Assembly: GCA_002421665.1 (NCBI GenBank)
Contig: DISH01000004.1
Location: forward strand, 245,109-309,108
From: Candidatus Omnitrophica bacterium UBA6215
GTDB taxonomy: Bacteria > Omnitrophota > Gorgyraeia > Pluralincolimonadales > Pluralincolimonadaceae
Direction: 5' to 3'
DNA length: 64,000 nucleotides
The notes under the pieces are model-generated. The model was not told where the DNA came from and ran no database searches. It worked only from the letters and a program-made list of their open reading frames with translations. Below, piece by piece: positions 1 through 19,274 of this stretch (the stretch's first letter is position 1; each line of letters begins with the position of its first letter). The position numbers and the translations under genes are program-made.

Positions 1-209
1 CGGGCTCCGGTATCTCTTACGCGGGTTACGGGATAGACAGCGTTACCACTTTCCTTGGGGATGTACTGGATATAGAGGAGGGAAAGAGGAGAGTATCGTG
101 GTTTGAAGGCAGGAGGCCTACTTTCAAGGATTCGATAGTTTCGACCAAAGTCCTTGAGGCCGTTAACAGGAGCCTTAAGACGGACGGTAAATGGGTGGAG
201 ATAAAGTAG
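1..209 (+). CDS. 3' end of an upstream gene (partial, unknown function)
   Basis: Frame 3 is open from the window edge to TAG at 207-209 (...VLEAVNRSLKTDGKWVEIK*). Protein-like composition, no recognisable motif. Confidence 0.35.
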   Translation, partial: GSGISYAGYGIDSVTTFLGDVLDIEEGKRRVSWFEGRRPTFKDSIVSTKVLEAVNRSLKTDGKWVEIK

Positions 210-211
210 CG

Positions 212-1267
212 ATGGGCGGCGTAAAGATATCCGGGAAAAAACTGCACTGCTTCATTAACAAGACCCTTATTAAGGCCGGCGCAAGGAAAGACGTGGCCGG
301 CTATGTGTCCGGAGGGTTGATACAGACTTCCCTGCGCGGTGTTGATTCGCACGGTGTGAGGTTACTGCCCCATTACATTGCTTCGATGAAAGCCGGCAGG
401 ATCAACCCCGATCCGAAATACAGGTTCAGGAAGACATCTTTTTCCACGGGGACCCTGGACGGCGACCATACCTTCGGTCATGCCGCAGGAATGGAAGCGG
501 CAAGGAAGGCCGTAGAGTTGGCTCGAAAATCCGGCACCGGCCATGTAGCGGTCTGTAATTCCACGCATTTCGGGGCAGCCGCATATTATTCCCTCGAAAT
601 AGCGAAGCATGACATGATAGGCCTGAGTTTTACCCATGCTGATTCGCTTATGAAGACCTACGCGGGCAAAAGGGCTTTCCTCGGCACGAACCCCATCTCG
701 TTCACCGCGCCGATACAGGGCGAAGGTCCGCTTTGCCTGGATATGGCAACAACCCTGTATAACTTCAACAAGGTTAAGCAGCTTAGGGAACATGGGCTTG
801 ACGCGCCTGAAGGTGTAGGGGCGGATGAGGGCGGTTTTGACACTACGGACCCCCACAAGATCTCAATGCTTTTGCCGATAGGCGGATACAAGGGTTACGG
901 TTTGAGCCTTATGGTCGAGGTCCTGTGCGGTATCCTTACGGGTATGCCTTATGGTCCTCATATATCCAGTATGTTCAAGGCGCCTCTTAGCCAGAAGAGG
1001 TTCTTGGGTCATTTTATATGCGCTATAAAGATCGATTGTTTCCAGGACAAGAAGGTTTTTAAGAAAAGGATGGCCGCCCTGGTAAGGGAGCTGCGCAGGG
1101 AGCCGTCCATAGAAAAAGGCCGTCAAGTCCAGGTTGCCGGGGATCCGGAGAAGAAGACCTTTGCGCGAAGGATGAAAGAGGGTATTCCTTTGAGTGCGGC
1201 TGAATTCGAGGATTTCAACAGGCTATCGGATGAATATGGTGTTAAATTGGAGATCATATCGGATTGA
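212..1267 (+). CDS. Ldh_2 family (malate/L-lactate/sulfolactate-type) 2-hydroxyacid dehydrogenase
   Basis: Family-typical N-terminus ...LRGVDSHGVRLLPHY..., then TGHVAVCNSTHFGAAAYY and GTNPISFTAP. Alternative ATG at 191 overlaps the upstream stop. Confidence 0.8.
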   Translation: MGGVKISGKKLHCFINKTLIKAGARKDVAGYVSGGLIQTSLRGVDSHGVRLLPHYIASMKAGRINPDPKYRFRKTSFSTGTLDGDHTFGHAAGMEAARKAVELARKSGTGHVAVCNSTHFGAAAYYSLEIAKHDMIGLSFTHADSLMKTYAGKRAFLGTNPISFTAPIQGEGPLCLDMATTLYNFNKVKQLREHGLDAPEGVGADEGGFDTTDPHKISMLLPIGGYKGYGLSLMVEVLCGILTGMPYGPHISSMFKAPLSQKRFLGHFICAIKIDCFQDKKVFKKRMAALVRELRREPSIEKGRQVQVAGDPEKKTFARRMKEGIPLSAAEFEDFNRLSDEYGVKLEIISD

Positions 1268-2934
1268 TTCCTGCGGCCATAAGTAAAGCCGATTTCGTCA
1301 TCATAATACCTCCTGCGGGAGTTAAGAATACCGTCTATCCGCCTTACGGGGCAATGTACATAGCCGGCGCAGTCAGGAGGATGGGACTTATCCCGGCGAT
1401 AATCAACGTCGACACCGAGAGGATATCGAACGAAGCTATAATCGACCGGGTCAGGCAGATCTCCCCGAAATATATAGGTTTCAGCGGGATAGTCGCGCCG
1501 TCGTATAAATATATAAAGGCTTTGAGCCGTCAGATAAAGTCCGCGTTCCCGGACAGGGTCCAGATACTCGGCGGCGGCCTTTCCAGCGCTGCAGGTCCGG
1601 TATTAAAGAACACCCCGATAGATTACGTTGTTGCCGGGGAAGGCGACAGGACAATAGTAGAGCTTCTAGCTGCCCTTGAGAATGGGGTCTCCGCCGACGG
1701 TGTCGCCGGGATGTATATCAGGGACGGGGAAAATTTCAGGCATACCGGCACCAGGAGACTGATAGCCCGCTTAGACGAGATCCCGTATCCGGCCTTTGAC
1801 CTTGTCGATATGGACAGGTATATGCCCGACGGCGTTGAGTTCATACGCAATTTTATCCCGGGTATCAGGGATAAGAGGATACTTGATCCGCGCAGGAAGA
1901 GTAAGATGATGACCATTCCCACGAGCAGGGGCTGTTTCGGGAAATGTTCTTTCTGTTTCAGGGCTTATCCCGGGATAAGGATCAATTCGATAAAGTATGT
2001 CTTTGACCTGATAGAATATTGTATGGACAAGTTCGGGGCAGGTTTCTTCTCGCTGGGAGATGAATGTTTCGCCCCGAATAAGGAGAGGAACTGGGAATTC
2101 ATTGAGGAATACAAGAGAAGGAAGATGGATTTTGTTTTCAGGATACTCGGGATGCGGGTGGATACCGTTGACAAGGAGATACTGAAGGCTTACAGAGAGA
2201 TAGGCTGCTGGATGATCGAGTACGGTTTTGAGGCCGGTAACCAGAAGATGCTTAACGTAATAGATAAGCGTGTTACGGTCGAACAGAACAGGCAGACTGC
2301 GCTCTGGACCAGCCAGGCCGGGATATACACTTCTCCGACGCTTGTCCTCGCGATGCCGGGAGAGACGGACAAGACGGTATCCGAATCCGCCGATTTCATC
2401 AAGTCCCTGGGGCTCGGTTATAAGCAGTACCAGTGGTCATACGCCTTGCCTATACCCGGTTCGCCCCTGTATGAGTTCGCGCGGCTTTCAGGTGCTATTG
2501 AGGATGAAGATGAGTATCTTGATTCTATTGACGGCAAGGTTGCAGGTGCTGGCGTCTTCCACGTCAACCTTACGGATGAGCCTGATGCCGTGGTGGCTTC
2601 ATGGGCGGACAGGATAAAGACCGAGATAGACGATGATTGCCTCAGGCGCCGATACGGATCACGTGTTTTGGCGGCTTTCATGGCGCTTGTCAAAAAAATA
2701 GGTATTCACTTGGCCAACGGGGATTTAGGCGCGGTGATAGCCGATAAAATGCGTTCACTTGCTTCCCCTGCGTCTCCGGTTAAAACGCCGGAAGGGTCCG
2801 TAATCAGGTTCAGGAAGAAGAGAGAGATGGTTTTTGAGGATCTAATAAAGGATATGGATTATAAGGCGATAAACAGGCAGATGGCGCTTTGCGAAGTCAA
2901 TGCGCGGCTCAGGGAGAGGCGGAATGGGGCTTAG
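1264..2934 (+). CDS. B12-binding domain radical SAM protein (class B rSAM, methyltransferase-like)
   Basis: N-terminal cobalamin-binding-like region (VVAGEGDRTIVELL), then rSAM cluster motif TSRGCFGKCSFC. TTG start overlapping the upstream stop (TTGA). Confidence 0.85.
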   Translation: MIPAAISKADFVIIIPPAGVKNTVYPPYGAMYIAGAVRRMGLIPAIINVDTERISNEAIIDRVRQISPKYIGFSGIVAPSYKYIKALSRQIKSAFPDRVQILGGGLSSAAGPVLKNTPIDYVVAGEGDRTIVELLAALENGVSADGVAGMYIRDGENFRHTGTRRLIARLDEIPYPAFDLVDMDRYMPDGVEFIRNFIPGIRDKRILDPRRKSKMMTIPTSRGCFGKCSFCFRAYPGIRINSIKYVFDLIEYCMDKFGAGFFSLGDECFAPNKERNWEFIEEYKRRKMDFVFRILGMRVDTVDKEILKAYREIGCWMIEYGFEAGNQKMLNVIDKRVTVEQNRQTALWTSQAGIYTSPTLVLAMPGETDKTVSESADFIKSLGLGYKQYQWSYALPIPGSPLYEFARLSGAIEDEDEYLDSIDGKVAGAGVFHVNLTDEPDAVVASWADRIKTEIDDDCLRRRYGSRVLAAFMALVKKIGIHLANGDLGAVIADKMRSLASPASPVKTPEGSVIRFRKKREMVFEDLIKDMDYKAINRQMALCEVNARLRERRNGA

Positions 2935-3703
2935 GATCGAAGCTGTCGGGATGATAAGGAGCGCGCTAACGCTGCTTCCGAAAGGAGCCTCATGCCTCGT
3001 TATGGGCGCCCTCGATTGTGATTTCAGCCTGAAGGACCTCATACGCAAGTACCCGGAATACGGGAAGGTGTTTAAGCCTGCCGCGGGGGATCCGCGCTCC
3101 TGCGAACTTAAGGCCGTCCTCGGGGCGCTAGGGTGCGGGGATGTCAATACGATCGATATTAACGAAAGGGCCGATATCAAGACAGACCTTTCATCAACCG
3201 TCGAAAGTTCTTTAACGGGGAAGGCCGATCTCATACTGGATTGCGGGACCCTGGAGCACATATTTGACACCAAGTCCGCCGTTGTAAATATGAACCTTAT
3301 GCTCAAGAAAGGCGGGATAATAATACATATGAGCCCTGTGTCGTTTTACGGGCACGGATTCGTAAATTTTAACCCCTCATATTTCGATTCTCTATACGCG
3401 GGATCCGGATATGACCAGATTTTTAGGATGATGAACGTGACCGTATATAATCCTTTTTTCGTGATAGACACTTCGCGGTTGTCCGCGTTCCCGGCATTTA
3501 TATGCAAGGCCGTTAATAAAATTATGGTAAGGGCCCCGCTCTTCAGGTTTAACGTAAATTTGCCGTTGCGAGGGCAGAAGAAGAGATTTTCGTTATTTGA
3601 GTCCGCCATATCGCAGTTCGGCATGCCGAAGAACCTGGTGTATTGCTGCGTGTACAGGAAGACGACGGAGGCGCTTAAGATACCCTATGACGTGTGGGAG
3701 TGA
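2924..3703 (+). CDS. putative class I SAM-dependent methyltransferase
   Basis: DLILDCGTLEHIFD ... LMLKKGGIIIH resembles post-motif-I/II regions of class I MTs. Start uncertain (the ORF is open from 2900). Confidence 0.5.
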   Translation: MGLRIEAVGMIRSALTLLPKGASCLVMGALDCDFSLKDLIRKYPEYGKVFKPAAGDPRSCELKAVLGALGCGDVNTIDINERADIKTDLSSTVESSLTGKADLILDCGTLEHIFDTKSAVVNMNLMLKKGGIIIHMSPVSFYGHGFVNFNPSYFDSLYAGSGYDQIFRMMNVTVYNPFFVIDTSRLSAFPAFICKAVNKIMVRAPLFRFNVNLPLRGQKKRFSLFESAISQFGMPKNLVYCCVYRKTTEALKIPYDVWE

Positions 3704-3705
3704 AC

Positions 3706-4743
3706 ATGCGCGTCGCTAAGAACTTATTGGGTCCCGACTACTGCTATGACCCGTCAAGGACAGCGGATACGCTCAACCCGGGGCAGAAAGAGGCGAGAGA
3801 GGAGTTCTTGAGGGAGATAGACTCAAAGGGACTTTATACAGTACTCGAGAGGTGCCCTTTTTGCGGCAATGAAGCGTGTACACAGATCTCCGAAACGGAT
3901 GCCAGGGGTCTTCCCTGCGCTATCGCGGTATGTGACAGGTGCGGCGGTTGTTTTAAGCTTAAGGTTTTTACGCCTGAGGCCGCCGCGTTTCATTATGGAA
4001 AGATATCATACCGGCTAAGGGGTAAAGACCCGTGCACGCGGGCGGTTGAGAAGCTGTTTTGGGACAGGGTGAAGATGTTCGCCTGTCCGCGCTACAATTT
4101 CATAAGGCGTTTCGTAAAACTTGAGCCCGGCAGGGACCTGGTTGCGGAGTTCGGGTGCGGTGACGGCGCGAACCTGATGCCATGGAAGAAGAACGGGTTC
4201 GATGTGCTCGGGATCGAATATGATCCGGCTATGTGCAGGTTCGGGCGCGAAAAAGGGATGGACCTGGTACCGGCTGACTTTATGACCTATGAATTCGGAG
4301 ACAGGAAGCCGAATCTGGTGATACTCTCCCATTTTCTCGAGCATGTGCCGGATATATCTGCGGTGCTCAGCCGATTGCGTTCGGTAGCCGGGCCTAAGGG
4401 AAAAGTTTTTATCGAGGTACCGGGCGCAAGGGTCCACGGGATAAGGAAACCTCTGTCGGGATTCGACGTGGAGCATAACTATTATTTTGATCTGGGCTCG
4501 CTCTCAGGAGTTCTGGAAAAGAACGGGTTTAGTAAGGATTACGGCGATGAGTTCATCCGGGTTATGTGCTCCTCGACTTGCGCCCGGCCGGCAGCCTTCC
4601 CTGCAAAACCGGGTTACAGAAGGCTCGGTGATATCATGAGAGATGCAGAGGAAGGCAGATTGAGGATAAAGCTGCTTGATAAATTCAATAATGTATATTA
4701 CAGGCTGCGCTACGCGGCCATATCCGCAGGAGCCAAATTATGA
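3706..4743 (+). CDS. SAM-dependent methyltransferase with N-terminal Cys4 zinc-ribbon (sugar C-methyltransferase-like architecture)
   Basis: CPFCGN...CDRCGG zinc ribbon followed by MT motif I EFGCGDGANL. The ATG at 3706 lies 3 nt past the upstream stop (a GTG at 3694 is also possible). Confidence 0.7.
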   Translation: MRVAKNLLGPDYCYDPSRTADTLNPGQKEAREEFLREIDSKGLYTVLERCPFCGNEACTQISETDARGLPCAIAVCDRCGGCFKLKVFTPEAAAFHYGKISYRLRGKDPCTRAVEKLFWDRVKMFACPRYNFIRRFVKLEPGRDLVAEFGCGDGANLMPWKKNGFDVLGIEYDPAMCRFGREKGMDLVPADFMTYEFGDRKPNLVILSHFLEHVPDISAVLSRLRSVAGPKGKVFIEVPGARVHGIRKPLSGFDVEHNYYFDLGSLSGVLEKNGFSKDYGDEFIRVMCSSTCARPAAFPAKPGYRRLGDIMRDAEEGRLRIKLLDKFNNVYYRLRYAAISAGAKL

Positions 4744-5471
4744 AAAAGGCAGGGACTATAGCGATGATACCCGCGAGGATGGGCAGTACGAGATTGGCCA
4801 TGAAGAACCTCGCTTTGGTAGCCGGAAAGCCTATGATCTATTACGCGATAAAGGCCGCGAAGGATTCACGCGTTTTCGACAGGATAGTAGTTAACTCGGA
4901 GAGCGATGTTTTTGCGCGAATAGCGAAACGCTACGGTGTGGATTTCTATAAAAGGCCGGAACAGTGGGCCGGTTCGACGGTCAAATCTGATTTTGTGGTC
5001 TACGATTTTATTTCAAATAACCCGTGCGATATGGTAGCCTGGGTGAACCCGACGTCGCCGTTGCAGCAAGCCGATGAGGTAAGGCGCGCGGTTGAGCATT
5101 TCAAGAAAGAAAAGCTCGATTCGATGATAACGGTCAAGGATGAGCAGGTCCATTGCGTTTACCGCGGTAAACCGGTCAATTTTGACATTAAAAAGGTGTT
5201 TGCACAGACCCAGGACCTACTTCCCGTACAACCTTTCGTGTATTCGGTGATGATGTGGAAATCTGATATATTCAGGAGCGAGTTCGAGAAGAGAGGTCGA
5301 GCTTTCTTTTGCGGAAAGACGGGATATTTTCCCGTAAGCAAGCTCTCGGCCGTCATAATAAAAAGACAGGAGGACCTTATGCTTGCGGATTACCTGTTGA
5401 AGTCATTGTCAAGAGGCGCTGCTTACAGGGTCCGTTACGATAAACTCGCCGTAAAAGGCAGGAGAGGTTAA
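4740..5471 (+). CDS. acylneuraminate/Kdo-type cytidylyltransferase (CTP_transf_3 family, CMP-sugar synthetase)
   Basis: Hallmark N-terminus IAMIPARMGSTRLAMKNL...GKPMIYYAI and ~240 aa size. ATGA overlap with the upstream gene. Confidence 0.85.
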   Translation: MKKAGTIAMIPARMGSTRLAMKNLALVAGKPMIYYAIKAAKDSRVFDRIVVNSESDVFARIAKRYGVDFYKRPEQWAGSTVKSDFVVYDFISNNPCDMVAWVNPTSPLQQADEVRRAVEHFKKEKLDSMITVKDEQVHCVYRGKPVNFDIKKVFAQTQDLLPVQPFVYSVMMWKSDIFRSEFEKRGRAFFCGKTGYFPVSKLSAVIIKRQEDLMLADYLLKSLSRGAAYRVRYDKLAVKGRRG

Positions 5472-5472
5472 A

Positions 5473-6819
5473 GTGGGAAAGCTTGTATCTATCATAATAA
5501 GGACTAAAGACGAGGAACGTTGGATAACGCAATGCCTTAACAGCGTATTTGAACAGGAATATAAGGATTTTGAGGTCATACTTGTCGATAATGAGAGCCA
5601 GGACAAAACGCTGGAGAAGGCGAGACAGTTCAAGCTGGCGAAAGTGGTCAAATGCAGCGACTACCTTCCGGGCAAAGCGCTCAACATCGGCATAAATGAA
5701 GCCAGGGGAGAGCTTATCGCCTGCCTGTCAGGGCACTGCATCCCGGTAAACGGCAATTGGCTGGGCAGCCTGGTCAGGGACTTTGATGACGACAAGGTCG
5801 CGGGCGTATACGGTCGCCAGGAACCTATGAGCTTTACCCCTGACATGGACAAACGGGACTTGGCGCTTGTGTTCGGGCTGGACAGGAGGGCGCAGGTCAA
5901 GGACAGTTTTTTCCATAACGCGAACAGCATGATACGCAGGGATATCTGGCAGAAGGAACCCTTCGATGAATCGGTGACGAACATCGAAGACAGGGTCTGG
6001 GCGCAAAAGGTGCTGCAGGCGGGTTACCGTATTATCTACGAGCCCGACGCGAGCGTTTACCATTATCACGGTATCCACCAGGACGGCAACAGGGAAAGGT
6101 GCGCGAATGTCGTGAGGATACTCGAGAACCTGCACGCGGGTTATAATTATAAGTCCATCGATGCCGCCAAGCTTAATACCGTCGCCGTTATACCGGTAAA
6201 GGGCGAGATTAAATATCTTGCCGGTAAGCCGCTGGCGGAATATACGATAAGGCGCGCGCTTGAATCTAAATACATAAAAAACGTAATCATTTCAACCGAC
6301 AACCCGGAATTGGCGAAAATAGCCCGCGATATGGGGGCCAAGGCTCCTTTCCTCAGGGATGCCTCGATGTCCAAGGAATATATAGACATCGGGCGGGTCC
6401 TGCAGTATTCCCTGGGCAGGATCGAGGAGGGAGGTATATTCCCCGACCTCATTGTGAGTCTTGAGATAACTTTTCCGTTCAGGCCCGAAGGCCTGCTTGA
6501 TGACATGATCCTGCAGTTGACGCAGAAAGGCCTCGACAGCGTCATCGCGGTCAAGCCGGAGAATAAGACCGTATGGAAAGAGAATGACGGCAGGCTCATG
6601 CAGATCGAAGGGAGCCTTACTCCCAGGCAGTTCAAGGAACCGAGTTTCCTTGAACTTAAGGGAATAGGCTGTGTTACGCATCCTGAGTTCTTGCGCGAGG
6701 GCAGTCTTTTGGGGGAAAAGGTCGGTATATATGAAATTGACAACCCGTATTCATCCATAGAGGTCAGAGGTGATGAGGATTTCAAGCTGGCGGAAAAACT
6801 CATAAAGGGGTGGTTCTAA
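5473..6819 (+). CDS. bidomain protein: N-terminal GT2 glycosyltransferase fused to C-terminal acylneuraminate-type cytidylyltransferase
   Basis: N-terminal VSIIIRTKDEERWITQCL...VILVDNESQD is a GT2 fold. The C-terminus from ~residue 235 (VAVIPVKGEIKYLAGKPL..., ISTDNPELAKIA) is CTP_transf_3-like. GTG start preceded by GGAGAGG. Confidence 0.8.
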   Translation: MGKLVSIIIRTKDEERWITQCLNSVFEQEYKDFEVILVDNESQDKTLEKARQFKLAKVVKCSDYLPGKALNIGINEARGELIACLSGHCIPVNGNWLGSLVRDFDDDKVAGVYGRQEPMSFTPDMDKRDLALVFGLDRRAQVKDSFFHNANSMIRRDIWQKEPFDESVTNIEDRVWAQKVLQAGYRIIYEPDASVYHYHGIHQDGNRERCANVVRILENLHAGYNYKSIDAAKLNTVAVIPVKGEIKYLAGKPLAEYTIRRALESKYIKNVIISTDNPELAKIARDMGAKAPFLRDASMSKEYIDIGRVLQYSLGRIEEGGIFPDLIVSLEITFPFRPEGLLDDMILQLTQKGLDSVIAVKPENKTVWKENDGRLMQIEGSLTPRQFKEPSFLELKGIGCVTHPEFLREGSLLGEKVGIYEIDNPYSSIEVRGDEDFKLAEKLIKGWF

Positions 6820-6820
6820 A

Positions 6821-7819
6821 GTGAATGTTTTCATAGGCCGCGAATTCGAGAAGTACTATGAGTCTTCTCCCCTGGTCCTGGTTGACGCAGGCGCCAGGGG
6901 AGGTCTCCAGAAGAATTGGAAGCGTGCGCGTAAACATCTTGAGATGATAGGATTTGAGCCCGACACCGCGGAATTTGAAAGACTTTCCGCTTCAAAGCCG
7001 CGCGCGGTGAGATATATAAATACCGCGCTGTACAGCAGGAAAGCGCGGATAAAATTATTCCTGACGAGGAACAGGGGTGTTTCTTCGATATACAGGCCCG
7101 ACGCAGCCTTTCTTGGAAAGTTCCCCGATAAAGAGCGTTATGATATAACCGGCGAGATCGAGACAGATGCGGAACCTCTTGACGGTGTCCTTGCTTTGAA
7201 TGGCATACCTGATGCGGATTTCTTGAAACTGGATACTCAGGGGAGCGAACTTGATATACTTAAGGGAGCTTCCGTGACCGTTGATAAAAAACTTTTTGGC
7301 ATAGAGGCGGAAGCCGAAACCGCACCTGTATATGAGAATCAGCCTCTCCTGGCGGATGTAGACGCTTTCATAAGGTCCAGGGGTTATTTTCTTTTCGATA
7401 TAAGACCGTTTTACTGGAAGAGATCCGCAGGGGTTTTTTACGGCGGTTCTAAGGGGCAAATGATCTTCGCGGACCTGCTCTATCTCAGGGAGCCGGCAAG
7501 CCTTGCGTCGATCATCTCAGGCATACCGGGCGAGGACGCGCGGAGGTCAAAAGTGATGAAAGCCGTCTCCATCTGTGTATTATACGGTTACATTGATTAT
7601 GCTATGGAGATATTCGATTCTTTCGGAGATATGTTCGGCGCCAGGGAAAGAAAGGCTTTCGAGCGCTGCACTCGCGGGAGAGTAACTATAGGAAGAATTA
7701 TACCGGGTTTCAGGGGAAGGGGCAGGCTGGCTGACGCCATACATGCCGTATACAGGATAGTCCATCCTGAATCCAGGGGATGGGTCAAACAAGGCCGCGC
7801 GCTCGGCAATACGGAATAA
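6821..7819 (+). CDS. FkbM-family methyltransferase
   Basis: VLVDAGARGG ... IGFEPD ... FLKLDTQGSELDILKGA matches the FkbM (Methyltransf_21) pattern. GTG start. Confidence 0.8.
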   Translation: MNVFIGREFEKYYESSPLVLVDAGARGGLQKNWKRARKHLEMIGFEPDTAEFERLSASKPRAVRYINTALYSRKARIKLFLTRNRGVSSIYRPDAAFLGKFPDKERYDITGEIETDAEPLDGVLALNGIPDADFLKLDTQGSELDILKGASVTVDKKLFGIEAEAETAPVYENQPLLADVDAFIRSRGYFLFDIRPFYWKRSAGVFYGGSKGQMIFADLLYLREPASLASIISGIPGEDARRSKVMKAVSICVLYGYIDYAMEIFDSFGDMFGARERKAFERCTRGRVTIGRIIPGFRGRGRLADAIHAVYRIVHPESRGWVKQGRALGNTE

Positions 7820-7834
7820 TCAACGGAGATCTTG

Positions 7835-9441: not shown

Positions 9442-10496
9442 TGATTTCTGCTGATTTCAGACACGAGGTCCTTGGAGTTAATAATGCTGAAGACTGGCTA
9501 AATGTCGCCGGCGAGTGCGCTTATGCCCCGTATAATGTCTTTGACCCGGATTTTATAGAACGAAACACGCGGGAGGGCTCTAACGCGTTGAGCGTGATAG
9601 TCTATGAAACCTCAAGCGGGAAACCGGCGGCCATATTCCCCGCCGAACTCTATACGAAATCGGCATCGTTGATAATTATCAGGATCGCTAAATCTTCCGC
9701 GTACGGAGGACTTATGATCGCCGGCGGGTATATGCGCGAGGCCGGTTCGATAAAGAGATATTTTTATGAAAATATCATATCAGGTTATTACCGATGTAAG
9801 GCTATTGACATGGTTGAGGTTATCCCGTCCCCTCTGCTGGAGATAGATTTTCCTGGGCTTACGCATGCTGCGGTGCCGTTCTATCGGGCGGAGGCTGAAA
9901 TAAATTCTTTGCTGTATACCGACCTGAAAGGCGATTTTACCGAAAAACTCGGTTATAACGTCAAGAGGGAATCGTTTAAGGGTATGGATGCCCTGAAAAG
10001 CCTTAAGGTGATGACAGGTTCTGAAGAAGGCGCTTTTGGGCTGTTGAAAGGGCTTGAATGCGGGAAAGCCGCGACGTTAAATGTTGAACCTATACCTGGG
10101 CGGGTCCTTGAAAAAATGCTGGGTTCACGGATGGTGGCGACAGTTATCGCGGTTTCCGGTGGTAAGGCGCTGGCCGCCGTATCTTACAGCTGCCGCGGGA
10201 AACTGGCCACTTTGCATTATAACGCGAGCACTCCGGAGGGGAAGAAGTCATTTGTCAACAAGGGTCTTATGCTTTGGTGTATTCAGGATTGCAAAAATAA
10301 GGGCGCTGACTATTTTGTGCTCGGCAACGGATGGGAACAGGGAAGGGATAAGAAAGAGAGCGAGCAACTCGAAAGGATGGCTTTTTTCAAAAAGAGTTTT
10401 TCCACTTCCGAGTCTTCCACCTTCAGGTTCAGCATGCCGCTTACTCTTAAAGGTCTCCTGGCGCAGGCGGGCAACCGCGCGATAAAGAGACGATGA
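9438..10496 (+). CDS. FemAB/CelD-like GNAT (Acetyltransf_6, BioF2-like) protein
   Basis: C-terminal ...KGADYFVLGNGWEQG... and overall FemABX-like layout. ATGATGA overlap with the upstream gene. Confidence 0.6.
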   Translation: MMISADFRHEVLGVNNAEDWLNVAGECAYAPYNVFDPDFIERNTREGSNALSVIVYETSSGKPAAIFPAELYTKSASLIIIRIAKSSAYGGLMIAGGYMREAGSIKRYFYENIISGYYRCKAIDMVEVIPSPLLEIDFPGLTHAAVPFYRAEAEINSLLYTDLKGDFTEKLGYNVKRESFKGMDALKSLKVMTGSEEGAFGLLKGLECGKAATLNVEPIPGRVLEKMLGSRMVATVIAVSGGKALAAVSYSCRGKLATLHYNASTPEGKKSFVNKGLMLWCIQDCKNKGADYFVLGNGWEQGRDKKESEQLERMAFFKKSFSTSESSTFRFSMPLTLKGLLAQAGNRAIKRR

Positions 10497-12400
10497 TGGA
10501 AAAAAAGAAAATGGAAACGGTATTTCTTGCTACGGCTTCCGAAGCCTCTCAATTCCTTGCCCCCGGAGAGTCGGACGCGGGCAGTTCCATAATTGCCATG
10601 AGCCCTTCCGTAAAGGTTTTATTGGAGAAGAACGGGCTCAAACCCGGAAGCTCGGGCTGCTATTTCGATACAGGCTCCCATAAAAAACTGCTTGAGAAGT
10701 CCGATGAGATAGTAAGATGGATAAAAGAGAACGCCAGGTTCGAGGATATGGGCCTGGGCACGGCGGAAGGATACGAAAGCTCCTTTATCTATTGGACGAG
10801 GTTCTCGGTACATCATTGTATGTGGGCAATAGAGGTGGTCTCAAGGGCGGTTGAGGACCTCAAACCGGATTCGCTTGCCGCGTTCGGTATCCCGGAAGTG
10901 CCCGTACCGAGTTTATATTTGGAGAAGGAAGATAAGGTGGCCGGCAGGCTGGCGGAAAGGGTGGCCTCTAAAAACGGACTTACCTTCAGGGAATTATCCC
11001 GCAAACCCCGCAGGTTCACCCGGCAGGTTTTGTCATGTTCTATTTACATAAATTCCGCTGTCAGGTTCCTGCTTGAGACATTCAGGTTTTACGCCTGGCT
11101 TTTAAAGAATTCATACGGCAAGGGAAAAAAGACGGCGGTTTTTACCACCTCATCCTACCAGATGGATAAGACTGCGCAAGAGATGGTAAAGGAGCGTCCC
11201 GGCCTGCGTTGTGTTATGCTCATCTATCCGATAGATACGCTTTTTTATATCCCAGGACCGCTTTTTTTTCTGGACTCTCCGACCGCAGGCATGTATATAA
11301 AACGACAAAGGGAACATTTTGCTGCGCTCGCAGAGAAAATCGAATCCGATAAGGGTATCTTTTCTTACAGGGGGATATTCTTCGGTGATATAGTGGCCCA
11401 AAGGCTCAGGATGAGCGTTTTTAACTATATTACAGGTCTTCAGATGTGGACGCTTAAACTTAATACGGCTATAAGGACTATCAACCCCGGCATTGTGGTA
11501 TCCAACGGCAATCGTGACGATGATATAATAACCGCGAAACTTTGTTCGGGGATGGGCATCGAGTCTTTAATAATCAGCCATGGTTCTCATGTAAAGCCGG
11601 GGAATTTTTACGAGAGGACGGAATGGTCTGAGCTTGGGGCAAAGCTTATAGGCGGGCCTTTTTCCTTGGTTGCCATGCAGTCCCCGTTGGCGGAGGGTTA
11701 TCTCGGGGAGTTTCCGCCGCGCGGCAGACCGGTAAAGACCGGTCCTTTGATATGGGGCAAGCCCGTTGACAGGAGCTCCGGAGAGTCTTTTGCCGCTCAG
11801 GTATTGGGGGATAAGTATGTGAAGGGGAAGACCAGGATCATCGTTCATGCCGGTACCCCAAAGCCAAGCAAGAGCCTGAGACTTTATGTTTATGAAACCC
11901 CTGAGGAATATATTAATGCCATTAGGGAATTGGCGGACGCGGTCGAACGGGTATCGGACGCGGTCCTGATAGTGAAGTTCCGTCCAAGCCCGGAGATAAG
12001 CATAGAGGATATTAAGGCGTCGGTGCCTTTTTCGAAAAAGGTTATATTGAGTGTAGGGGAGCCTTTCCTTAAGGTTCTGGCTATGGCCGACCTTCTGGTA
12101 AGTTTCTCGTCTACTACGATCGAGGAGGCCGTACAGAACGGGGTGCCGGTCCTGCTGTACGGCGGGCAGGGGAGGTATTCGCACATCCCGGCTTATGAGG
12201 TTGAAGACAGTTCTGCGCCTGTCGAAAGGAGCGCGGCGTATCATGTACGCGGCCCGGGCGGACTGCTGCCGGCCCTCGATGGCATCCTTCGTCTGGGCAT
12301 AGACGGACAGGGAAGGGACAAAGGGCTTTTTGACAAGTTCATATACCCGGAAGGGGAACGCATCCCATTGGAGAAGATAATAGATGAAGTCAGCCGATAA
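10493..12400 (+). CDS. large protein with TagF-like (glycosyl/glycerophosphate transferase, GT-B) C-terminal domain; N-terminal region of unknown function
   Basis: C-terminus LIVKFRPSP ... ADLLVSFSSTTIEEAVQNGVPVL resembles the Glyphos_transf (KPHP ... DYSS) pattern. The N-terminal ~400 aa are unrecognised. Confidence 0.5.
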   Translation: MMEKKKMETVFLATASEASQFLAPGESDAGSSIIAMSPSVKVLLEKNGLKPGSSGCYFDTGSHKKLLEKSDEIVRWIKENARFEDMGLGTAEGYESSFIYWTRFSVHHCMWAIEVVSRAVEDLKPDSLAAFGIPEVPVPSLYLEKEDKVAGRLAERVASKNGLTFRELSRKPRRFTRQVLSCSIYINSAVRFLLETFRFYAWLLKNSYGKGKKTAVFTTSSYQMDKTAQEMVKERPGLRCVMLIYPIDTLFYIPGPLFFLDSPTAGMYIKRQREHFAALAEKIESDKGIFSYRGIFFGDIVAQRLRMSVFNYITGLQMWTLKLNTAIRTINPGIVVSNGNRDDDIITAKLCSGMGIESLIISHGSHVKPGNFYERTEWSELGAKLIGGPFSLVAMQSPLAEGYLGEFPPRGRPVKTGPLIWGKPVDRSSGESFAAQVLGDKYVKGKTRIIVHAGTPKPSKSLRLYVYETPEEYINAIRELADAVERVSDAVLIVKFRPSPEISIEDIKASVPFSKKVILSVGEPFLKVLAMADLLVSFSSTTIEEAVQNGVPVLLYGGQGRYSHIPAYEVEDSSAPVERSAAYHVRGPGGLLPALDGILRLGIDGQGRDKGLFDKFIYPEGERIPLEKIIDEVSR

Positions 12401-14213
12401 ACGTTCGTCAGCCATGTGGTTCTTCCTGAAACGTTACAAAAGGATATATGTCGCCCTTTTCCTGGTTACCATTACTTATGCGGTCCTCGAGAGCATAAAT
12501 ATATCCATACTGCTGCCCCTGTTCGATACGGTCCTTAATAATACCGGCCGGGAAGGAAGACTTTTCGCGTTCATAGATGCCGTTATTTCGCATATGCCGT
12601 TCAAACAGCCTTTTATGAATGTCTTTTTGCTGGCGATCCTGCTCGTAATTTTCAAGGAGATTGCCGCTTTCGTAAGGATAAAACTTGTCGGGTACGGTGT
12701 AGGGAAGGTCGTATGCGACGTCAAAGAGGAGGTATTCGATAAATTCGCGTTTTCCGATTACCAGTTCTTCCTGGATAATAAACAAGGGAAGTTGATCTAT
12801 GACCTGCTGACCGCTTCGGGCAGGCTGGGCAATTGCCTTCAATTCTTCCCGGACCTCGTTACCGCCGTTTTGATGACGGTCACCATAGGCGTGCTTCTTT
12901 TCTCCATATCCGTCAAGATGACCATCTTCCTTATGATCGTAGGGGTGATTTACAGCGTAGCAATGCATTTCCTCGCGCAGAGGGTTTCGTACAATATAGG
13001 GGCCGAGAGGGCCATGGTCAGCACCCAGGCCAACGTGATAGCTAATGAGCTTATAGACGGCGTAAAACATATCAAGGTCTCCGGCTCATTCGATATATGG
13101 AGGGGTAATTTCCGCAGGGCGGTAAGGAAGTTCAAAGACCTGGTAATAAGGGATTTTATCTGGGTCAACGTTCCCGACAGGATGATACAGGTAATACCCG
13201 TCGTGATACTTACTGCCATCGCGTTCTACCTTTACAAGAGGGCGGATGCGGTGGAATTCCTGACCGGGAACCTGGTGACCATGGGTGTATACATATATGC
13301 GTTTTACAGGGTCAGCCCGTACCTGGCTTCTTTCGGAAGGCTCAGGATGCAGATAATGGGTTCCTTGCCGGACGTGGAACTTCTTTATGAGGACCTGTTA
13401 AAAGAGACCAATTTTATAAAGGACGGCACGCTCGACATAAGGGATTTCCGCAGGGAGATAAGGTTTAGCAGGGTCAACTTTGCCTACAAAGGCAGTAAGG
13501 AAGTGTTAAGGGACATCGACCTGAGCGTGGAAGCGGGCAAGACTACGGCTGTAGTCGGTTCTTCGGGCAGCGGTAAGACTACATTGATCAACCTAATGGT
13601 ACGGCTCTTCGACCCGGATAGCGGCAGTATCACGATAGACGGGGTTGACCTCAAGGATATCAGGCATTCCTCCCTTATACACCTTATAGGCATGGTCAGC
13701 CAGGACACGTTCATATTCAACGGGACCATAAGGGACAATATTGTCTTCGGCCTTGAAGGTATCGCGGAGGACAAATTGGTCGCGGCATCCAAGCTTGCCA
13801 ACGCCCACGGTTTTATCGAAAGTTTCCCGTCGAAATATGATACGGTCGTCGGGGATAAAGGTCTTAAGTTATCCGGAGGTCAAAGGCAGAGGATAGCCAT
13901 AGCCAGGGCGATATTGCGCGACCCGAAGATACTGATACTCGACGAGGCCACGAGCTCGCTTGACTACCACTCAGAGGTAACGGTCCAGCAGGCGATAAAC
14001 ACGGTATCCAAGAACAGGACGGTGGTAGTTATAGCCCATCGGTTGTCCACCATCATAAACGCGGATAAGATAATCGTCCTTGACAGGTTCAGGATAGCGG
14101 ACCAGGGCACGCATGCCGAACTCATGGGCCGCGAAGGGATATACAAATCACTTTATGAAAGCCAGGGGAAATTGCATAATATACAAACCGGAGGTAATGC
14201 CAGCGATGAGTGA
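12384..14213 (+). CDS. ABC transporter, fused permease/ATPase (MsbA/PglK-type exporter)
   Basis: Six predicted TM helices N-terminally; Walker A GSSGSGKTT, signature LSGGQRQRIAIARA, Walker B ILILDEATS. No C39 peptidase domain. Confidence 0.9.
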   Translation: MKSADKRSSAMWFFLKRYKRIYVALFLVTITYAVLESINISILLPLFDTVLNNTGREGRLFAFIDAVISHMPFKQPFMNVFLLAILLVIFKEIAAFVRIKLVGYGVGKVVCDVKEEVFDKFAFSDYQFFLDNKQGKLIYDLLTASGRLGNCLQFFPDLVTAVLMTVTIGVLLFSISVKMTIFLMIVGVIYSVAMHFLAQRVSYNIGAERAMVSTQANVIANELIDGVKHIKVSGSFDIWRGNFRRAVRKFKDLVIRDFIWVNVPDRMIQVIPVVILTAIAFYLYKRADAVEFLTGNLVTMGVYIYAFYRVSPYLASFGRLRMQIMGSLPDVELLYEDLLKETNFIKDGTLDIRDFRREIRFSRVNFAYKGSKEVLRDIDLSVEAGKTTAVVGSSGSGKTTLINLMVRLFDPDSGSITIDGVDLKDIRHSSLIHLIGMVSQDTFIFNGTIRDNIVFGLEGIAEDKLVAASKLANAHGFIESFPSKYDTVVGDKGLKLSGGQRQRIAIARAILRDPKILILDEATSSLDYHSEVTVQQAINTVSKNRTVVVIAHRLSTIINADKIIVLDRFRIADQGTHAELMGREGIYKSLYESQGKLHNIQTGGNASDE

Positions 14214-19214: not shown

Positions 19215-19274
19215 CAATGGAAACAAAAAAAGTATTCGAAGCTGGAGGTGGCGGTTTAAATTAGGCCTCATTTG

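What the first reader, a model, noticed from the sequence alone, without database searches (positions are those of the whole stretch)
5473..6819. GT2 glycosyltransferase fused in-frame to a CMP-sugar synthetase domain
One polypeptide carries a GT2 (DXD, VILVDNESQD) N-terminal half and a complete acylneuraminate-type cytidylyltransferase C-terminal half. It lies directly downstream of a stand-alone paralogous cytidylyltransferase (4740–5471). A fusion of donor-activating enzyme and transferase would channel the CMP-sugar directly to its acceptor; I do not recognise this as a described architecture.
Basis: seen in the sequence. Interest (0 to 1): 0.55.

Follow-up and report, generated by a model that had tools for sequence, protein, structure and literature searches.

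The report
Glycosyltransferase fused to degenerate cytidylyltransferase domain
This is a real, widespread but uncharacterised two-domain protein of bacterial sialic-acid-like sugar gene clusters: a strongly conserved glycosyltransferase half with an unusual active-site motif, joined to a cytidylyltransferase-like half that has lost its nucleotide-triphosphate loop, so the sugar is probably activated by the separate enzyme encoded just upstream and not by the fused domain.

Summary
The ORF (5473-6819, 448 aa) and both domain calls are real, and the fusion is not an assembly artefact. Full-length two-domain homologues occur on hundreds of independent contigs from about 20 bacterial lineages. The interpretation needs correcting on two points. 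(1) VDNES is the upstream nucleotide-binding motif, not the DXD. The true DXD position reads S86-G-H88-C89 (S and H 100%, C 97% across 118 representatives), where all seven other GT2 enzymes in this window carry Asp. (2) The C-terminal half has the CMP-sugar-synthetase fold, but all 77 fusions examined lack 7-8 residues of the phosphate-binding P-loop. That segment contains the Ser and Lys that are invariant in 81/81 stand-alone cytidylyltransferases from the same loci, and whose Lys is essential in characterised enzymes. A dedicated, orthologous, P-loop-intact cytidylyltransferase (here 4740-5471) accompanies the fusion in 87% of well-flanked loci, usually with a Gfo/Idh/MocA oxidoreductase and ulosonic-acid synthases. 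Best reading: the stand-alone enzyme activates an ulosonic acid, and the fusion is a GT2 transferase whose pseudo-cytidylyltransferase domain binds the CMP-sugar or docks to the synthetase. No characterised member was found. It is a new variant of known kinds and moderately interesting.

The parts
5473..6819 (+). Fusion ORF, 448 aa: GT2 half, helical linker, cytidylyltransferase-like half
5473..6069 (+). GT2 (GT-A fold) half, aa 1-199. This is the strongly conserved part: 41-62% identity across the deep family and about 60 positions >=85% conserved.
5587..5604 (+). D39-N-E-S42-Q-D44, the upstream nucleotide-binding motif (equivalent of 'DDGS').
5728..5739 (+). S86-G87-H88-C89 at the DXD position. 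S and H are 100% and C 97% conserved in 118 representatives. H88 replaces the Asp present in 7/7 other GT2s of the window.
5986..5991 (+). E172-D173, the 'ED' catalytic-base motif of GT2 (100% and 99% conserved)
6070..6159 (+). Inter-domain linker, aa 200-229. It has low AlphaFold confidence but contains conserved residues (Y196-H-x-H-G-I-H just before it, then R209, C210, N212-V214). There is no stop codon or frameshift.
6172..6816 (+). Cytidylyltransferase-like half, aa 234-448. It has the CMP-NulO synthetase fold. Polar residues conserved within the >=45% identity clade: R295, R337, D355, D325, W368, R408.
6190..6234 (+). Truncated P-loop 'IPVKGEIKYLAGKPL': 14 residues from P241 to L254, against 22 in stand-alone family members. 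The equivalents of S15, K16, K21 and N22 of N. meningitidis CMP-Neu5Ac synthetase are missing.
   Evidence: PMC6580227
6760..6768 (+). E430-V-R432 at the position of the Mg-binding D209-x-D211. This is a lineage trait shared with the partner cytidylyltransferase (I-I-K), so it is not independent evidence of inactivity.
4740..5471 (+). Stand-alone partner cytidylyltransferase, 243 aa, with an intact P-loop 'IPARMGSTRLAMKN'. It belongs to the orthologous group that travels with the fusion and is the likely true activating enzyme.
1..209 (+). 3' end of a Gfo/Idh/MocA oxidoreductase gene that is cut by the window edge. It is seen whole on the identical contig (L001 3568-4737) and is present in 32/47 well-flanked loci.
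191..1267 (+). Ldh_2-family NAD(P)H oxidoreductase, present in 25/47 loci
1264..2934 (+). B12-binding radical SAM enzyme, present in 22/47 loci
3694..4743 (+). SAM methyltransferase (Methyltransf_23), present in 17/47 loci
6821..7819 (+). FkbM-type methyltransferase, translationally coupled downstream of the fusion
10493..12400 (+). 635-aa GT-B-fold protein with helical insertions, a distant relative of TIGR04326. It is the gene immediately downstream of the fusion in 15 loci.
12384..14213 (+). Fused ABC exporter (ABC_membrane + ABC_tran)
14113..15135 (+). Radical SAM/SPASM enzyme
15135..16742 (+). 535-aa protein, distantly related to TIGR04326
16739..18292 (+). Second B12-binding radical SAM enzyme

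Best explanation
The protein is a soluble GT2-family transferase whose C-terminal domain is a pseudo-cytidylyltransferase. It works as one half of a co-inherited pair with the stand-alone, P-loop-intact cytidylyltransferase encoded just upstream.

Proposed sequence of events:
1. An ulosonic (sialic-acid-like or Kdo-like) acid is made by a synthase. In other loci this is KdsA-like, PseI or a pyruvate aldolase. None lies in this window.
2. The stand-alone enzyme (4740-5471) converts it to the CMP-sugar.
3. The Gfo/Idh/MocA and Ldh_2 oxidoreductases, the methyltransferases and the radical SAM enzymes tailor it, probably at the CMP-activated level as proposed for ElaABC.
4. The fusion carries out a glycosyl transfer with its GT2 half. 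Its cytidylyltransferase-like half, which keeps the fold and several basic residues but not the triphosphate-binding loop, holds the CMP-ulosonate or docks and dimerises with the synthetase.

SHOWN: the fusion is real; the conservation asymmetry; the loss of DXD and of the P-loop; the partnership with a dedicated cytidylyltransferase; the ulosonate gene context.
INFERRED: the C-half is catalytically inactive; it binds a CMP-sugar or the partner enzyme; the GT2 half is active.
OPEN: whether the CMP-ulosonate is the donor (my preference, about 45%) or the acceptor-side ligand of a transfer from an ordinary NDP-sugar.
For: (1) P-loop deletion. The segment from P241 to L254 is 14 residues in 70/77 fusions and 15 in 7. 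The same segment is 22 residues in 83/86 stand-alone family members of the same loci and 23 in 3. The deletion is seen independently by Pfam (match starts at profile position 18), by HMMER against PDB and by BLASTP (8-residue gap).
(2) The deleted segment holds S16 and K22, which are 100% conserved in 81 stand-alone enzymes although these are only about 25-39% identical to one another. These residues equal S15 and K21 of the N. meningitidis enzyme. The P-loop residues bind the alpha/beta phosphates, and K21A abolished activity in the E. coli enzyme (PMC6580227).
(3) A stand-alone cytidylyltransferase is present in 41/47 loci with >=6 kb flanks and is the immediate upstream gene in 27/81. The adjacent ones form their own orthologous group: 39% mutual identity against 24-25% otherwise, and the nearest neighbour has the same label in 70/81 cases.
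(4) The GT2 half is the constrained part: 41-62% identity against 10-45% for the C-half. About 60 positions are >=85% conserved, including the ED base motif, against one position in the C-half. Complete stand-alone versions of this GT2 type exist (P0232, P0252).
(5) Within the >=45% identity clade the C-half still conserves 39 positions, with R295, R337 and D355 at 100% and the R12 equivalent basic in 74/77. So the domain is functional, not decaying.
(6) Context: PseI (511 bits), KdsA-like, HpcH and HMGL aldolases, WbuX/WbuZ, NanM-like O-methyltransferase. In the compact cassette CT3-fusion-GFO-KdsA-like-shikimate-DH-like (Prochlorococcus, Roseibium, SAR324 and others) the fusion is the only transferase-like gene.
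(7) Precedents: EpaA is a CTP_transf_3 domain fused to an aldo-keto reductase domain and acts in pseudaminic-acid epimerisation (PMC12053666). In ElaABC, ElaB is the cytidylyltransferase, ElaA is a Gfo/Idh/MocA enzyme proposed to oxidise CMP-legionaminic acid, and ElaC is the reductase (PMC13656337).
Against: - There are no biochemical data for any member.
- A shortened loop could still bind CTP in an unforeseen way. The R12-equivalent base (K243) and the R71-equivalent (R295) are retained.
- The partner cytidylyltransferase is itself non-canonical: it has I and K where D209 and D211 should be in 28-29 of 42. 'The active one is the neighbour' therefore rests on its intact P-loop only.
- The S-x-H GT2 variant also occurs in an ordinary exopolysaccharide cluster with no cytidylyltransferase (Gloeothece). 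The missing DXD therefore does not point to a CMP-sugar donor.
- The co-evolution test did not single out the C-half: Spearman 0.48 against 0.47 for the GT2 half.
- This window holds no ulosonic-acid synthase.
- The AlphaFold model is only moderate: pLDDT 72, with the arm at 365-397 and the C-terminus below 50.
Confidence: 0.55

Rival explanations
1. True bifunctional enzyme. The C-terminal domain synthesises the CMP-sugar, using a shortened loop and a non-canonical catalytic set, and passes it to the GT2 domain. The upstream stand-alone enzyme activates a different sugar.
For: - Both Pfam domains score above their thresholds, and the fold matches CMP-NulO synthetases.
- The C-half is under purifying selection, with many conserved Arg, Asp and Glu residues in the close clade.
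- Many loci carry two or three ulosonate routes, so several activating enzymes would be needed.
- The partner enzyme also lacks the canonical Asp pair, which suggests this lineage may use unusual chemistry anyway.
Against: - All 77 fusions lack the segment carrying S15, K16, K21 and N22, which is kept in all 86 stand-alone members. K21A abolishes activity and K16A attenuates it (PMC6580227).
- In the deep family the C-half keeps no conserved catalytic set: the basic residue at 243 is present in only 43%, and only G397 is >=85% conserved.
- In some members the domain is unrecognisable (P0205, P0255) or absent (P0232, P0252, P0228).
- Compact cassettes have one synthase, one intact cytidylyltransferase and the fusion, so a second activating enzyme is not needed.
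Confidence: 0.12
2. Conventional GT2 acting on an ulosonate-bearing acceptor. The GT2 half transfers a common sugar from a UDP-, GDP- or dTDP-sugar, and the cytidylyltransferase-like half only recognises the ulosonate or CMP-ulosonate on the acceptor side. This is a sub-variant of the best explanation that differs in donor identity.
For: - The upstream nucleotide-binding motif and the ED base are typical of GT2.
- The same S-x-H GT2 type occurs in an ordinary EPS cluster without any cytidylyltransferase.
- The very high conservation of the GT2 half against the variable C-half fits a constant donor and a variable acceptor.
- His at the third DXD position is used for metal binding in GT27 enzymes (my own knowledge, not tested here).
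Against: - In the compact cassettes no other enzyme is available to consume the CMP-ulosonate that the cassette makes.
- There is no precedent that I know of for glycosylating a CMP-sugar.
Confidence: 0.25
3. Nucleotide-sugar hydrolase analogue. The GT2 half uses water as acceptor to release a free hexose for the ulosonate synthase, as PseG or NeuC do. It is fused to a cytidylyltransferase-type domain as in the Helicobacter pylori PseF-PseG protein HP0326 (recalled from memory).
For: - One relative carries a SAF domain, the sugar-binding C-terminal domain of NeuB/PseI synthases, in front of the same GT2 type (P0228).
- PseI-type loci are among the contexts.
Against: - Most contexts use KdsA-like enzymes or pyruvate aldolases, whose substrates are not NDP-sugar derived.
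- PseI operons in these loci sit apart on the other strand with their own PseF-like enzyme (L034).
- The Gloeothece homologue sits in a cluster with no ulosonate synthase.
Confidence: 0.05
4. Assembly or sequencing artefact joining two genes.
For: None found.
Against: - The identical protein occurs on 18 contigs from independent samples.
- All 120 closest and about 100 distant homologues are full-length two-domain proteins.
- There are 131 relatives in species-representative genomes, including a cultured Roseibium isolate.
- The linker contains invariant residues.
Confidence: 0.01

Closest known systems
CMP-nonulosonate / CMP-Kdo synthetases (NeuA, PseF, LegF/ElaB, KdsB; Pfam PF02348)
   Same: - The C-half has the same fold (Foldseek TMt 0.65-0.72 to 6ifd, 9ftc, 9t4z, 1qwj, 1eyr).
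- It keeps the beta1 'IPxK/R' start, the 'GKPL' turn, the STD motif, the R71-equivalent R295, a 'TxPxR' motif and a probable dimerisation arm.
   Different: - It is 7-8 residues short in the P-loop and lacks the S15, K16, K21 and N22 equivalents.
- Q104 is replaced by E331, and D209/D211 by E430/R432.
- It scores 63 bits against the 205.7-bit cutoff of the PseF equivalog model.
- It is fused behind a GT2 domain.
EpaA of Acinetobacter baumannii prophages (CTP_transf_3 + aldo-keto reductase; PMC12053666)
   Same: A cytidylyltransferase-family domain is fused to a second catalytic domain that works on the nonulosonic acid, and it acts with a partner oxidoreductase.
   Different: - The domain order is reversed, and the partner domain is a reductase, not a glycosyltransferase.
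- The authors suggest a cytidylyltransferase role for EpaA's domain. Here the loop needed for that activity is missing and a separate intact enzyme is present.
ElaABC module for 8-epi-legionaminic acid (PMC13656337)
   Same: The gene set matches: a cytidylyltransferase, a Gfo/Idh/MocA oxidoreductase and a second NAD(P)H oxidoreductase, with tailoring proposed to occur on the CMP-activated sugar. The fusion's conserved partners are a cytidylyltransferase, a Gfo/Idh/MocA enzyme and Ldh_2.
   Different: - ElaC is an SDR, not Ldh_2.
- ElaABC has no GT2 fusion.
- The action of ElaA on the CMP-sugar is itself a docking-based proposal.
GT2 family glycosyltransferases (e.g. TarS 5tze, PcManGT 6yv7, WrtF 9om*, SpsA)
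   Same: Pfam PF00535 at 85.5 bits; GT-A fold; the nucleotide-binding motif and the ED base motif.
   Different: - The DXD is replaced by an invariant S-x-H-C.
- There are additional invariant His residues (H148, H197, H199).
- The best NCBIfam match is MftF at only 63 bits against a cutoff of 280, so there is no close characterised relative.
Other natural or engineered cytidylyltransferase fusions (E. coli/GBS NeuA-esterase; H. pylori HP0326 PseF-PseG; vertebrate CMAS with an inactive phosphatase-like domain; the engineered CMP-Neu5Ac synthetase/sialyltransferase fusion of Gilbert et al. 1998). All recalled from memory, not checked here.
   Same: Members of this family are often fused to a second sialic-acid-pathway module. 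One such module (in vertebrate CMAS) is a pseudoenzyme. The engineered fusion shows that a synthetase-transferase fusion is workable.
   Different: In all of these the cytidylyltransferase domain is the active one. Here it is the degenerate one, and the fused partner is a GT2.

Membership tests
Glycosyltransferase family 2 (Pfam PF00535, GT-A fold) | Profile match above the curated threshold | tested here: met
   85.5 bits against 23.3, aa 6-158 on profile positions 1-163/168
Glycosyltransferase family 2 (Pfam PF00535, GT-A fold) | GT-A fold | tested here: met
   The AlphaFold N-half has pLDDT mostly 85-96. Foldseek matches PcManGT, WrtF, CgT and TarS at E 1e-11 to 1e-14.
Glycosyltransferase family 2 (Pfam PF00535, GT-A fold) | N-terminal nucleotide-binding Asp motif (DDGS-like) | tested here: met
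   V38-D39-N40-E-S42-x-D44 aligns with V(D/N)DGSxD of seven other GT2s. D39 is 98% and S42 99% conserved.
Glycosyltransferase family 2 (Pfam PF00535, GT-A fold) | DXD metal/diphosphate-binding motif | tested here: not met
   S86-G-H88 where 7/7 other GT2s in the window have Asp at the third position. S and H are 100% conserved in 118 representatives.
Glycosyltransferase family 2 (Pfam PF00535, GT-A fold) | Catalytic base ('ED' motif) | tested here: met
   E172-D173 (100% and 99% conserved) aligns with the ED/EE of the other GT2s
Glycosyltransferase family 2 (Pfam PF00535, GT-A fold) | Glycosyl transfer from a nucleotide sugar | not testable with these tools
   Needs an enzyme assay
CMP-ulosonate synthetase (acylneuraminate/Kdo cytidylyltransferase, Pfam PF02348) | Profile match above the curated threshold | tested here: met
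   34.3 bits against 22.6, but only profile positions 18-118 of 217
CMP-ulosonate synthetase (acylneuraminate/Kdo cytidylyltransferase, Pfam PF02348) | Fold | tested here: met
   Foldseek TMt 0.65-0.72 to 6ifd, 9ftc, 9t4z, 1qwj and 1eyr
CMP-ulosonate synthetase (acylneuraminate/Kdo cytidylyltransferase, Pfam PF02348) | Phosphate-binding P-loop (R12, G14, S15, K16, K21, N22 in N. meningitidis numbering) | tested here: not met
   Only the R12 equivalent (K243) remains. A 7-8 residue deletion is present in 77/77 fusions, against a full loop in 86/86 stand-alone members. Residue roles are from PMC6580227.
CMP-ulosonate synthetase (acylneuraminate/Kdo cytidylyltransferase, Pfam PF02348) | Mg-binding acidic pair (D209, D211) and Q104 | tested here: not met
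   E430, R432 and E331. Caveat: the P-loop-intact partner enzymes also have I/K here in 28-29 of 42, so this feature does not discriminate within this lineage. Mutant data are from PMC2901514.
CMP-ulosonate synthetase (acylneuraminate/Kdo cytidylyltransferase, Pfam PF02348) | Equivalog-level match to a named synthetase (PseF, KdsB) | tested here: not met
   PseF TIGR03584 at 63 bits against a cutoff of 205.7; KdsB models below 19 bits
CMP-ulosonate synthetase (acylneuraminate/Kdo cytidylyltransferase, Pfam PF02348) | Domain-swapped dimerisation arm contributing to the partner's active site | tested here: inconclusive
   A conserved segment at 363-397 is present (E363, W368, R385, K388, G397), but it is modelled below pLDDT 50. 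No multimer prediction was possible.
ElaABC-like tailoring module for CMP-nonulosonic acids | Co-located cytidylyltransferase, Gfo/Idh/MocA oxidoreductase and second NAD(P)H oxidoreductase | tested here: met
   Cytidylyltransferase in 41/47 loci, Gfo/Idh/MocA in 32/47, Ldh_2 in 25/47. On the contig identical to this window the order is GFO, Ldh_2..., cytidylyltransferase, fusion.
ElaABC-like tailoring module for CMP-nonulosonic acids | Oxidoreductases act on the CMP-activated sugar | not testable with these tools
   This is a proposal from docking even for ElaA and ElaC

The most novel reading that the evidence does not exclude
The fusion defines a new class of ulosonate ('sialyl-like') transferase: a GT2-fold enzyme without a DXD motif that takes a CMP-ulosonic acid as donor. 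Its pseudo-cytidylyltransferase domain heterodimerises with the dedicated stand-alone synthetase, through the domain-swap arm typical of this family. The labile CMP-sugar would then be handed directly from the active subunit to the transferase. The system would be widespread in SAR11, Prochlorococcus, anammox bacteria, Omnitrophota and CPR bacteria.
Probability: 0.2. Interest if true: 0.75.

Novelty: new variant of a known kind. Interest (0 to 1): 0.45.

Why it matters
Sialic-acid-like sugars shape bacterial surfaces, phage and grazer recognition, and host mimicry. The transferases that install them are poorly known outside a few pathogen families.

This protein family is conserved at 45-60% identity in its GT2 half across very distant phyla. 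These include the most abundant marine bacteria (SAR11, Prochlorococcus) and uncultured groups (Omnitrophota, CPR, anammox bacteria). It always sits in ulosonic-acid loci, yet it is annotated only as 'glycosyltransferase'.

If the family consumes CMP-ulosonates, it would add a GT2-fold class to the known sialyl-, Kdo-, Pse- and Leg-transferases. It would also give a clear example of a pseudoenzyme domain derived from the donor-synthesising enzyme.

On the practical side, the result warns against reading domain hits as activities. The 'CMP-N-acetylneuraminic acid synthetase' label that some pipelines give these proteins is probably wrong. The compact five-gene cassette in a cultured Roseibium offers a tractable system to test all of this.

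Tried and rejected
1. Assembly artefact. Rejected.

2. 'The shortened loop is simply KdsB/SpsF length', my own early by-eye idea. Rejected. The KdsB-like enzymes in these loci have the full 22-residue segment.

3. E430/R432 as independent proof of inactivity. Withdrawn. The P-loop-intact partner enzymes carry I/K at the same positions in 28-29 of 42.

4. 'The C-half is evolving freely.' Rejected. Its mean pairwise distance (0.56) is close to that of bona fide stand-alone enzymes (0.62), and 39 positions are >=85% conserved in the close clade.

5. Mirror-tree test for specific co-evolution of the C-half with the partner enzyme. Inconclusive: Spearman 0.48 against 0.47 for the GT2 half, partial correlations 0.28 against 0.25.

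6. One GT-B-like ~600-aa protein per cytidylyltransferase domain (the 3:3 pattern seen in some loci). Rejected as a rule, since 24/44 loci have none, or 38/84 by profile search.

7. 'A missing DXD implies a metal-independent CMP-sugar donor.' Weakened. The same S-x-H motif occurs in a Gloeothece EPS-cluster GT2 with no cytidylyltransferase nearby.

8. The 635-aa neighbour as an identifiable CMP-sugar transferase. Only the fold could be established: GT-B, nearest to UDP-GlcNAc 2-epimerases including NeuC, E about 1e-8. There was no significant sequence-level PDB match.

9. Literature. Four searches aimed at this architecture or cassette found no characterised GT2-cytidylyltransferase fusion and no description of the KdsA-like / shikimate-DH-like cassette.

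10. Phage collection: no match. Plasmid collection: only GT2-half relatives.

12. Promoter and terminator scans were at chance level.
Full report
**1. The observation**

The + strand carries one uninterrupted ORF from 5473 to 6819 (448 aa). Its GTG start lies one base after the TAA stop of the preceding gene and is preceded by AGGAG. The next gene starts the same way at 6821. Pfam finds Glycos_transf_2 at aa 6-158 (E 5e-24) and CTP_transf_3 at aa 246-353 (E 2.8e-8), both above their curated cutoffs. The upstream ORF 4740-5471 is a stand-alone CTP_transf_3 (E 4e-20). The basic observation therefore holds. Promoter-like and terminator-like sites across 1-19.5 kb are at chance level, and genes abut or overlap, so the region reads as one long operon.

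**2. It is not an artefact**

- The identical protein is encoded on 18 contigs from independent samples.
- All 120 best database hits are 445-471 aa, 63-100% identical, and carry both domains.
- An exhaustive search of representatives (one per 50%-identity cluster) gives 494 clusters at E<=1e-30, with full-length two-domain members down to about 33% identity.
- Species-representative genomes hold 131 relatives. They span Omnitrophota, Planctomycetota (including Scalindua), CPR phyla, Thermodesulfovibrionales, Desulfobacterota, SAR324, Cyanobacteria (including a Prochlorococcus single-cell genome), Pelagibacteraceae, Legionellaceae, Acidobacteriota, Gemmatimonadales, Elusimicrobia, Anaerolineales and a cultured Roseibium.
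- The linker contains invariant residues.
- Source pipelines name these proteins 'glycosyltransferase', 'rhamnosyltransferase' or 'CMP-N-acetylneuraminic acid synthetase'.

**3. The GT2 half**

This is the constrained part of the protein. Across 118 representatives it stays 41-62% identical to the query, and about 60 positions are >=85% conserved.

At the true DXD column those seven all have Asp at the third position, while the fusion has S86-G-H88-C89 (the HMMER alignment to TarS agrees). S86 and H88 are 100% conserved and C89 97%. The ED catalytic-base motif (E172-D173) is retained.

The AlphaFold model of this half is confident and matches GT2 structures. Complete stand-alone versions of this GT2 type exist. 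One, in Gloeothece verrucosa PCC 7822, keeps S-A-H and sits in an ordinary exopolysaccharide cluster with no cytidylyltransferase. S-x-H is therefore the mark of a broader GT2 subfamily. On its own it says nothing about the donor.

**4. The cytidylyltransferase-like half**

It has the fold of CMP-Neu5Ac, CMP-Pse and CMP-Kdn synthetases (TMt 0.65-0.72), but it is not complete. Three independent methods show a missing loop:
- the Pfam match starts at profile position 18;
- the HMMER alignment to PDB chains starts after the P-loop;
- BLASTP against the neighbouring stand-alone enzyme opens an 8-residue gap: IPARMGSTRLAMKNLALVAGKP against IPVK--------GEIKYLAGKP.

The control is decisive. Stand-alone family members from the same 84 loci are very divergent (86 aligned; median 27% identity to the window's copy). 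Of the 81 tabulated by position relative to the fusion, all keep S16 and K22; R13 is 94% and N23 82% conserved across the 86. By the alignment, these residues equal R12, S15, K21 and N22 of the N. meningitidis enzyme. The segment from the conserved Pro to the conserved Leu is 22 residues in 83/86 stand-alone enzymes and 23 in the other 3. It is 14 residues in 70/77 fusions and 15 in the other 7.

In characterised enzymes the P-loop residues R12, G14, S15, K16 and K21 bind the alpha and beta phosphates, N22 binds the ribose, K21A abolishes activity and K16A attenuates it (PMC6580227).

I first also counted E430/R432 (at the D209/D211 positions) and E331 (at Q104) as evidence of inactivity, because D209A is dead and D211A loses 15,000-fold in kcat (PMC2901514). 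I then found that the P-loop-intact partner enzymes carry I and K at the same two positions in 28-29 of 42 cases. This is a lineage trait, and I no longer count it.

The C-half is not decaying. Its mean pairwise distance (0.56) resembles that of the stand-alone enzymes (0.62), against 0.37 for the GT2 half. Within the >=45% identity clade 39 positions are >=85% conserved, with R295, R337 and D355 at 100%. In the deeper family it diverges further: only G397 is >=85% conserved. In some members it is unrecognisable or absent.

**5. Context**

I clustered ORFs from 84 loci. Among the 47 loci with >=6 kb on both sides:
- 41 carry a stand-alone cytidylyltransferase;
- 32 carry a Gfo/Idh/MocA oxidoreductase;
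- 25 carry Ldh_2;
- 22 carry a B12-radical SAM enzyme;
- 19 carry the 635-aa protein;
- 17 carry a Methyltransf_23 methyltransferase;
- 16 carry an ABC exporter.

The cytidylyltransferase is the immediate upstream gene in 27/81 loci. The fusion-adjacent cytidylyltransferases form their own orthologous group: 39% mutual identity against 24-25% otherwise, the nearest neighbour has the same label in 70/81 cases, and they share the signature MIPARxGSTRLxMKNLAL.

Other recurrent families are PseI (511 bits), KdsA-like DAHP_synth_1, HpcH/HpaI and HMGL-like aldolases, a shikimate-DH-like enzyme, WbuX/WbuZ, a NanM-like O-methyltransferase and TIGR04326 proteins.

Two locus types stand out:
- **Large loci like this window.** They hold several ~535-660-aa TIGR04326-related proteins (hhalign 89-99.8%), an ABC exporter and radical SAM enzymes.
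- **A compact cassette:** cytidylyltransferase, fusion, GFO, KdsA-like, shikimate-DH-like. It occurs in Prochlorococcus, Rhodospirillaceae, Pseudomonadales, Roseibium, MarineAlpha5 and SAR324. It has no TIGR04326-type protein even by profile search, and no other transferase among the flanking large ORFs.

The 635-aa neighbour gives a high-confidence model (pLDDT 91.7, pTM 0.93). It has a GT-B fold, nearest to UDP-GlcNAc 2-epimerases including NeuC, and carries large helical insertions.

This window itself holds no NeuB-, KdsA- or aldolase-type synthase. Positions 18-54 kb are a large surface-glycan locus with GT2, GT4 and GT9 enzymes, RmlD, a WecA-like initiating transferase and a Wzy_C protein, and the locus ends before PriA at 54.5 kb.

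**6. Mechanism**

The most economical reading is an enzyme-pseudoenzyme arrangement. The dedicated stand-alone cytidylyltransferase activates an ulosonic acid. The oxidoreductases, methyltransferases and radical SAM enzymes tailor it. This parallels ElaABC, where a cytidylyltransferase, a Gfo/Idh/MocA enzyme and a reductase are proposed to work on CMP-legionaminic acid (PMC13656337). It also parallels EpaA, a CTP_transf_3 domain fused to a tailoring reductase (PMC12053666).

The fusion then performs a glycosyl transfer with its GT2 half. Its cytidylyltransferase-like half binds the CMP-sugar or docks to the synthetase. Because the compact cassette has no other transferase, I prefer the CMP-ulosonate as donor. 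The Gloeothece homologue and the typical GT2 nucleotide motif keep a conventional NDP-sugar donor open.

AlphaFold gives no confident inter-domain geometry (pTM 0.48), and I could not run a multimer prediction.

**7. Comparison and novelty**

The protein fails defining features of both families it resembles: the DXD motif for GT2, and the P-loop for the CMP-ulosonate synthetases. I therefore file it as a GT2-superfamily member of an S-x-H subfamily, fused to a cytidylyltransferase-fold pseudo-domain, and not as a bifunctional synthetase-transferase.

Fusions of cytidylyltransferase domains with other sialic-acid-pathway modules are known. EpaA was read here. NeuA-esterase, HP0326 and vertebrate CMAS are recalled from memory. 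I found no characterised GT2-cytidylyltransferase fusion.

The window's copy is one ordinary member of a large, uncharacterised family. It is a new variant of known kinds and of moderate interest. The interest lies mainly in the family's breadth (SAR11, Prochlorococcus, anammox bacteria, Omnitrophota, CPR) and in the clean pseudoenzyme signature.

Noticed in passing
window 10493-12400; also 15135-16742; L001 1596-3581; L004 933-2807 and 18583-20442: There is a superfamily of ~535-660-aa proteins with no Pfam domain, distantly related to TIGR04326 'surface carbohydrate biosynthesis protein' (hhalign 89-99.8%). Two or three paralogues occur per locus. The AlphaFold model of the window copy is very confident (pLDDT 91.7, pTM 0.93) and shows a GT-B fold nearest to UDP-GlcNAc 2-epimerases/NeuC, with large helical insertions. 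Invariant residues are H363-G364, H452, T455, E472, R497, S537, S540, E544-E545 and Y562. The function is unknown.
   Followed up: partly
window 4740-5471 and its orthologues next to the fusion in other loci: The partner cytidylyltransferase is itself non-canonical. Its P-loop is intact, but it has N instead of Q104 (26/42), and I and K instead of the Mg-binding D209 and D211 (28-29 of 42). A second subgroup, in the compact cassettes, has D-I-H and 'LTxTD(I/V)FR'. How these enzymes bind metal is unclear.
   Followed up: partly
L061 9255-14300 (Prochlorococcus sp. AG-409-M05); L074 and L076 (Roseibium); L063, L069, L075, L049: A compact, apparently self-contained five-gene cassette recurs: cytidylyltransferase, fusion, Gfo/Idh/MocA, KdsA-like (DAHP_synth_1) and a shikimate-dehydrogenase-like enzyme. 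In L076 an unclustered ORF sits at the KdsA-like position, and no CT3 was called in L049. In Roseibium the cassette is flanked by unrelated genes. I found no description of such a pathway. It may make a heptulosonic or octulosonic acid derivative.
   Followed up: partly
window 1264-2934, 14113-15135, 16739-18292; methyltransferases at 2900-3703, 3694-4743, 6821-7819, 7832-8659, 8650-9441: Two B12-binding radical SAM enzymes, one radical SAM/SPASM enzyme and at least five SAM-methyltransferase-like genes are packed around the fusion inside a sugar operon. This suggests heavy C- and O-methylation or other radical tailoring of the sugar. B12-radical SAM enzymes recur in 22/47 related loci.
   Followed up: no
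P0228 (protein from the representative search): One relative has a ribbon-helix-helix-like N-terminus and a SAF domain (the sugar-binding C-terminal domain of NeuB/PseI synthases) directly in front of the same S-G-H-C GT2 domain. It has no cytidylyltransferase-like domain.
   Followed up: partly
window 9411-10496: A 361-aa ORF within the operon has no Pfam or credible NCBIfam match. A homologous family member (329 aa) lies right after the fusion in a Pelagibacteraceae locus (L044).
   Followed up: no
window 36674-38563 and 38557-40416: An asparagine-synthase-type amidotransferase lies here, closest to the XrtA/PEP-CTERM-system amidotransferase model (626 bits, below its 816.9 cutoff). It is followed by a 619-aa protein combining a TuaH-like glycosyltransferase region with an ElyC-like C-terminus.
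   Followed up: no
window 19272-20456: A transglutaminase-core plus TPR protein is embedded between the ulosonate module and the downstream glycosyltransferase genes.
   Followed up: no
window 5469-5475 and 6817-6823: The same stop/start junction 'TAAAGTG' (TAA stop, one base, GTG start) links three consecutive genes: the cytidylyltransferase, the fusion and the FkbM methyltransferase. This indicates tight translational coupling. The whole 64-kb window has positive GC skew, and almost all genes lie on the + strand.
   Followed up: no
L008 (CAZAEH010000047.1), L012, L064, L062: The closest named relatives of the window's protein are binned inconsistently: 90% identity in an 'uncultured Planctomycetia' MAG, most other close hits in Omnitrophota, and 65-68% identity copies in CPR bins (Uhrbacteria, Nomurabacteria). 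This points either to horizontal transfer of the module or to binning errors.
   Followed up: no
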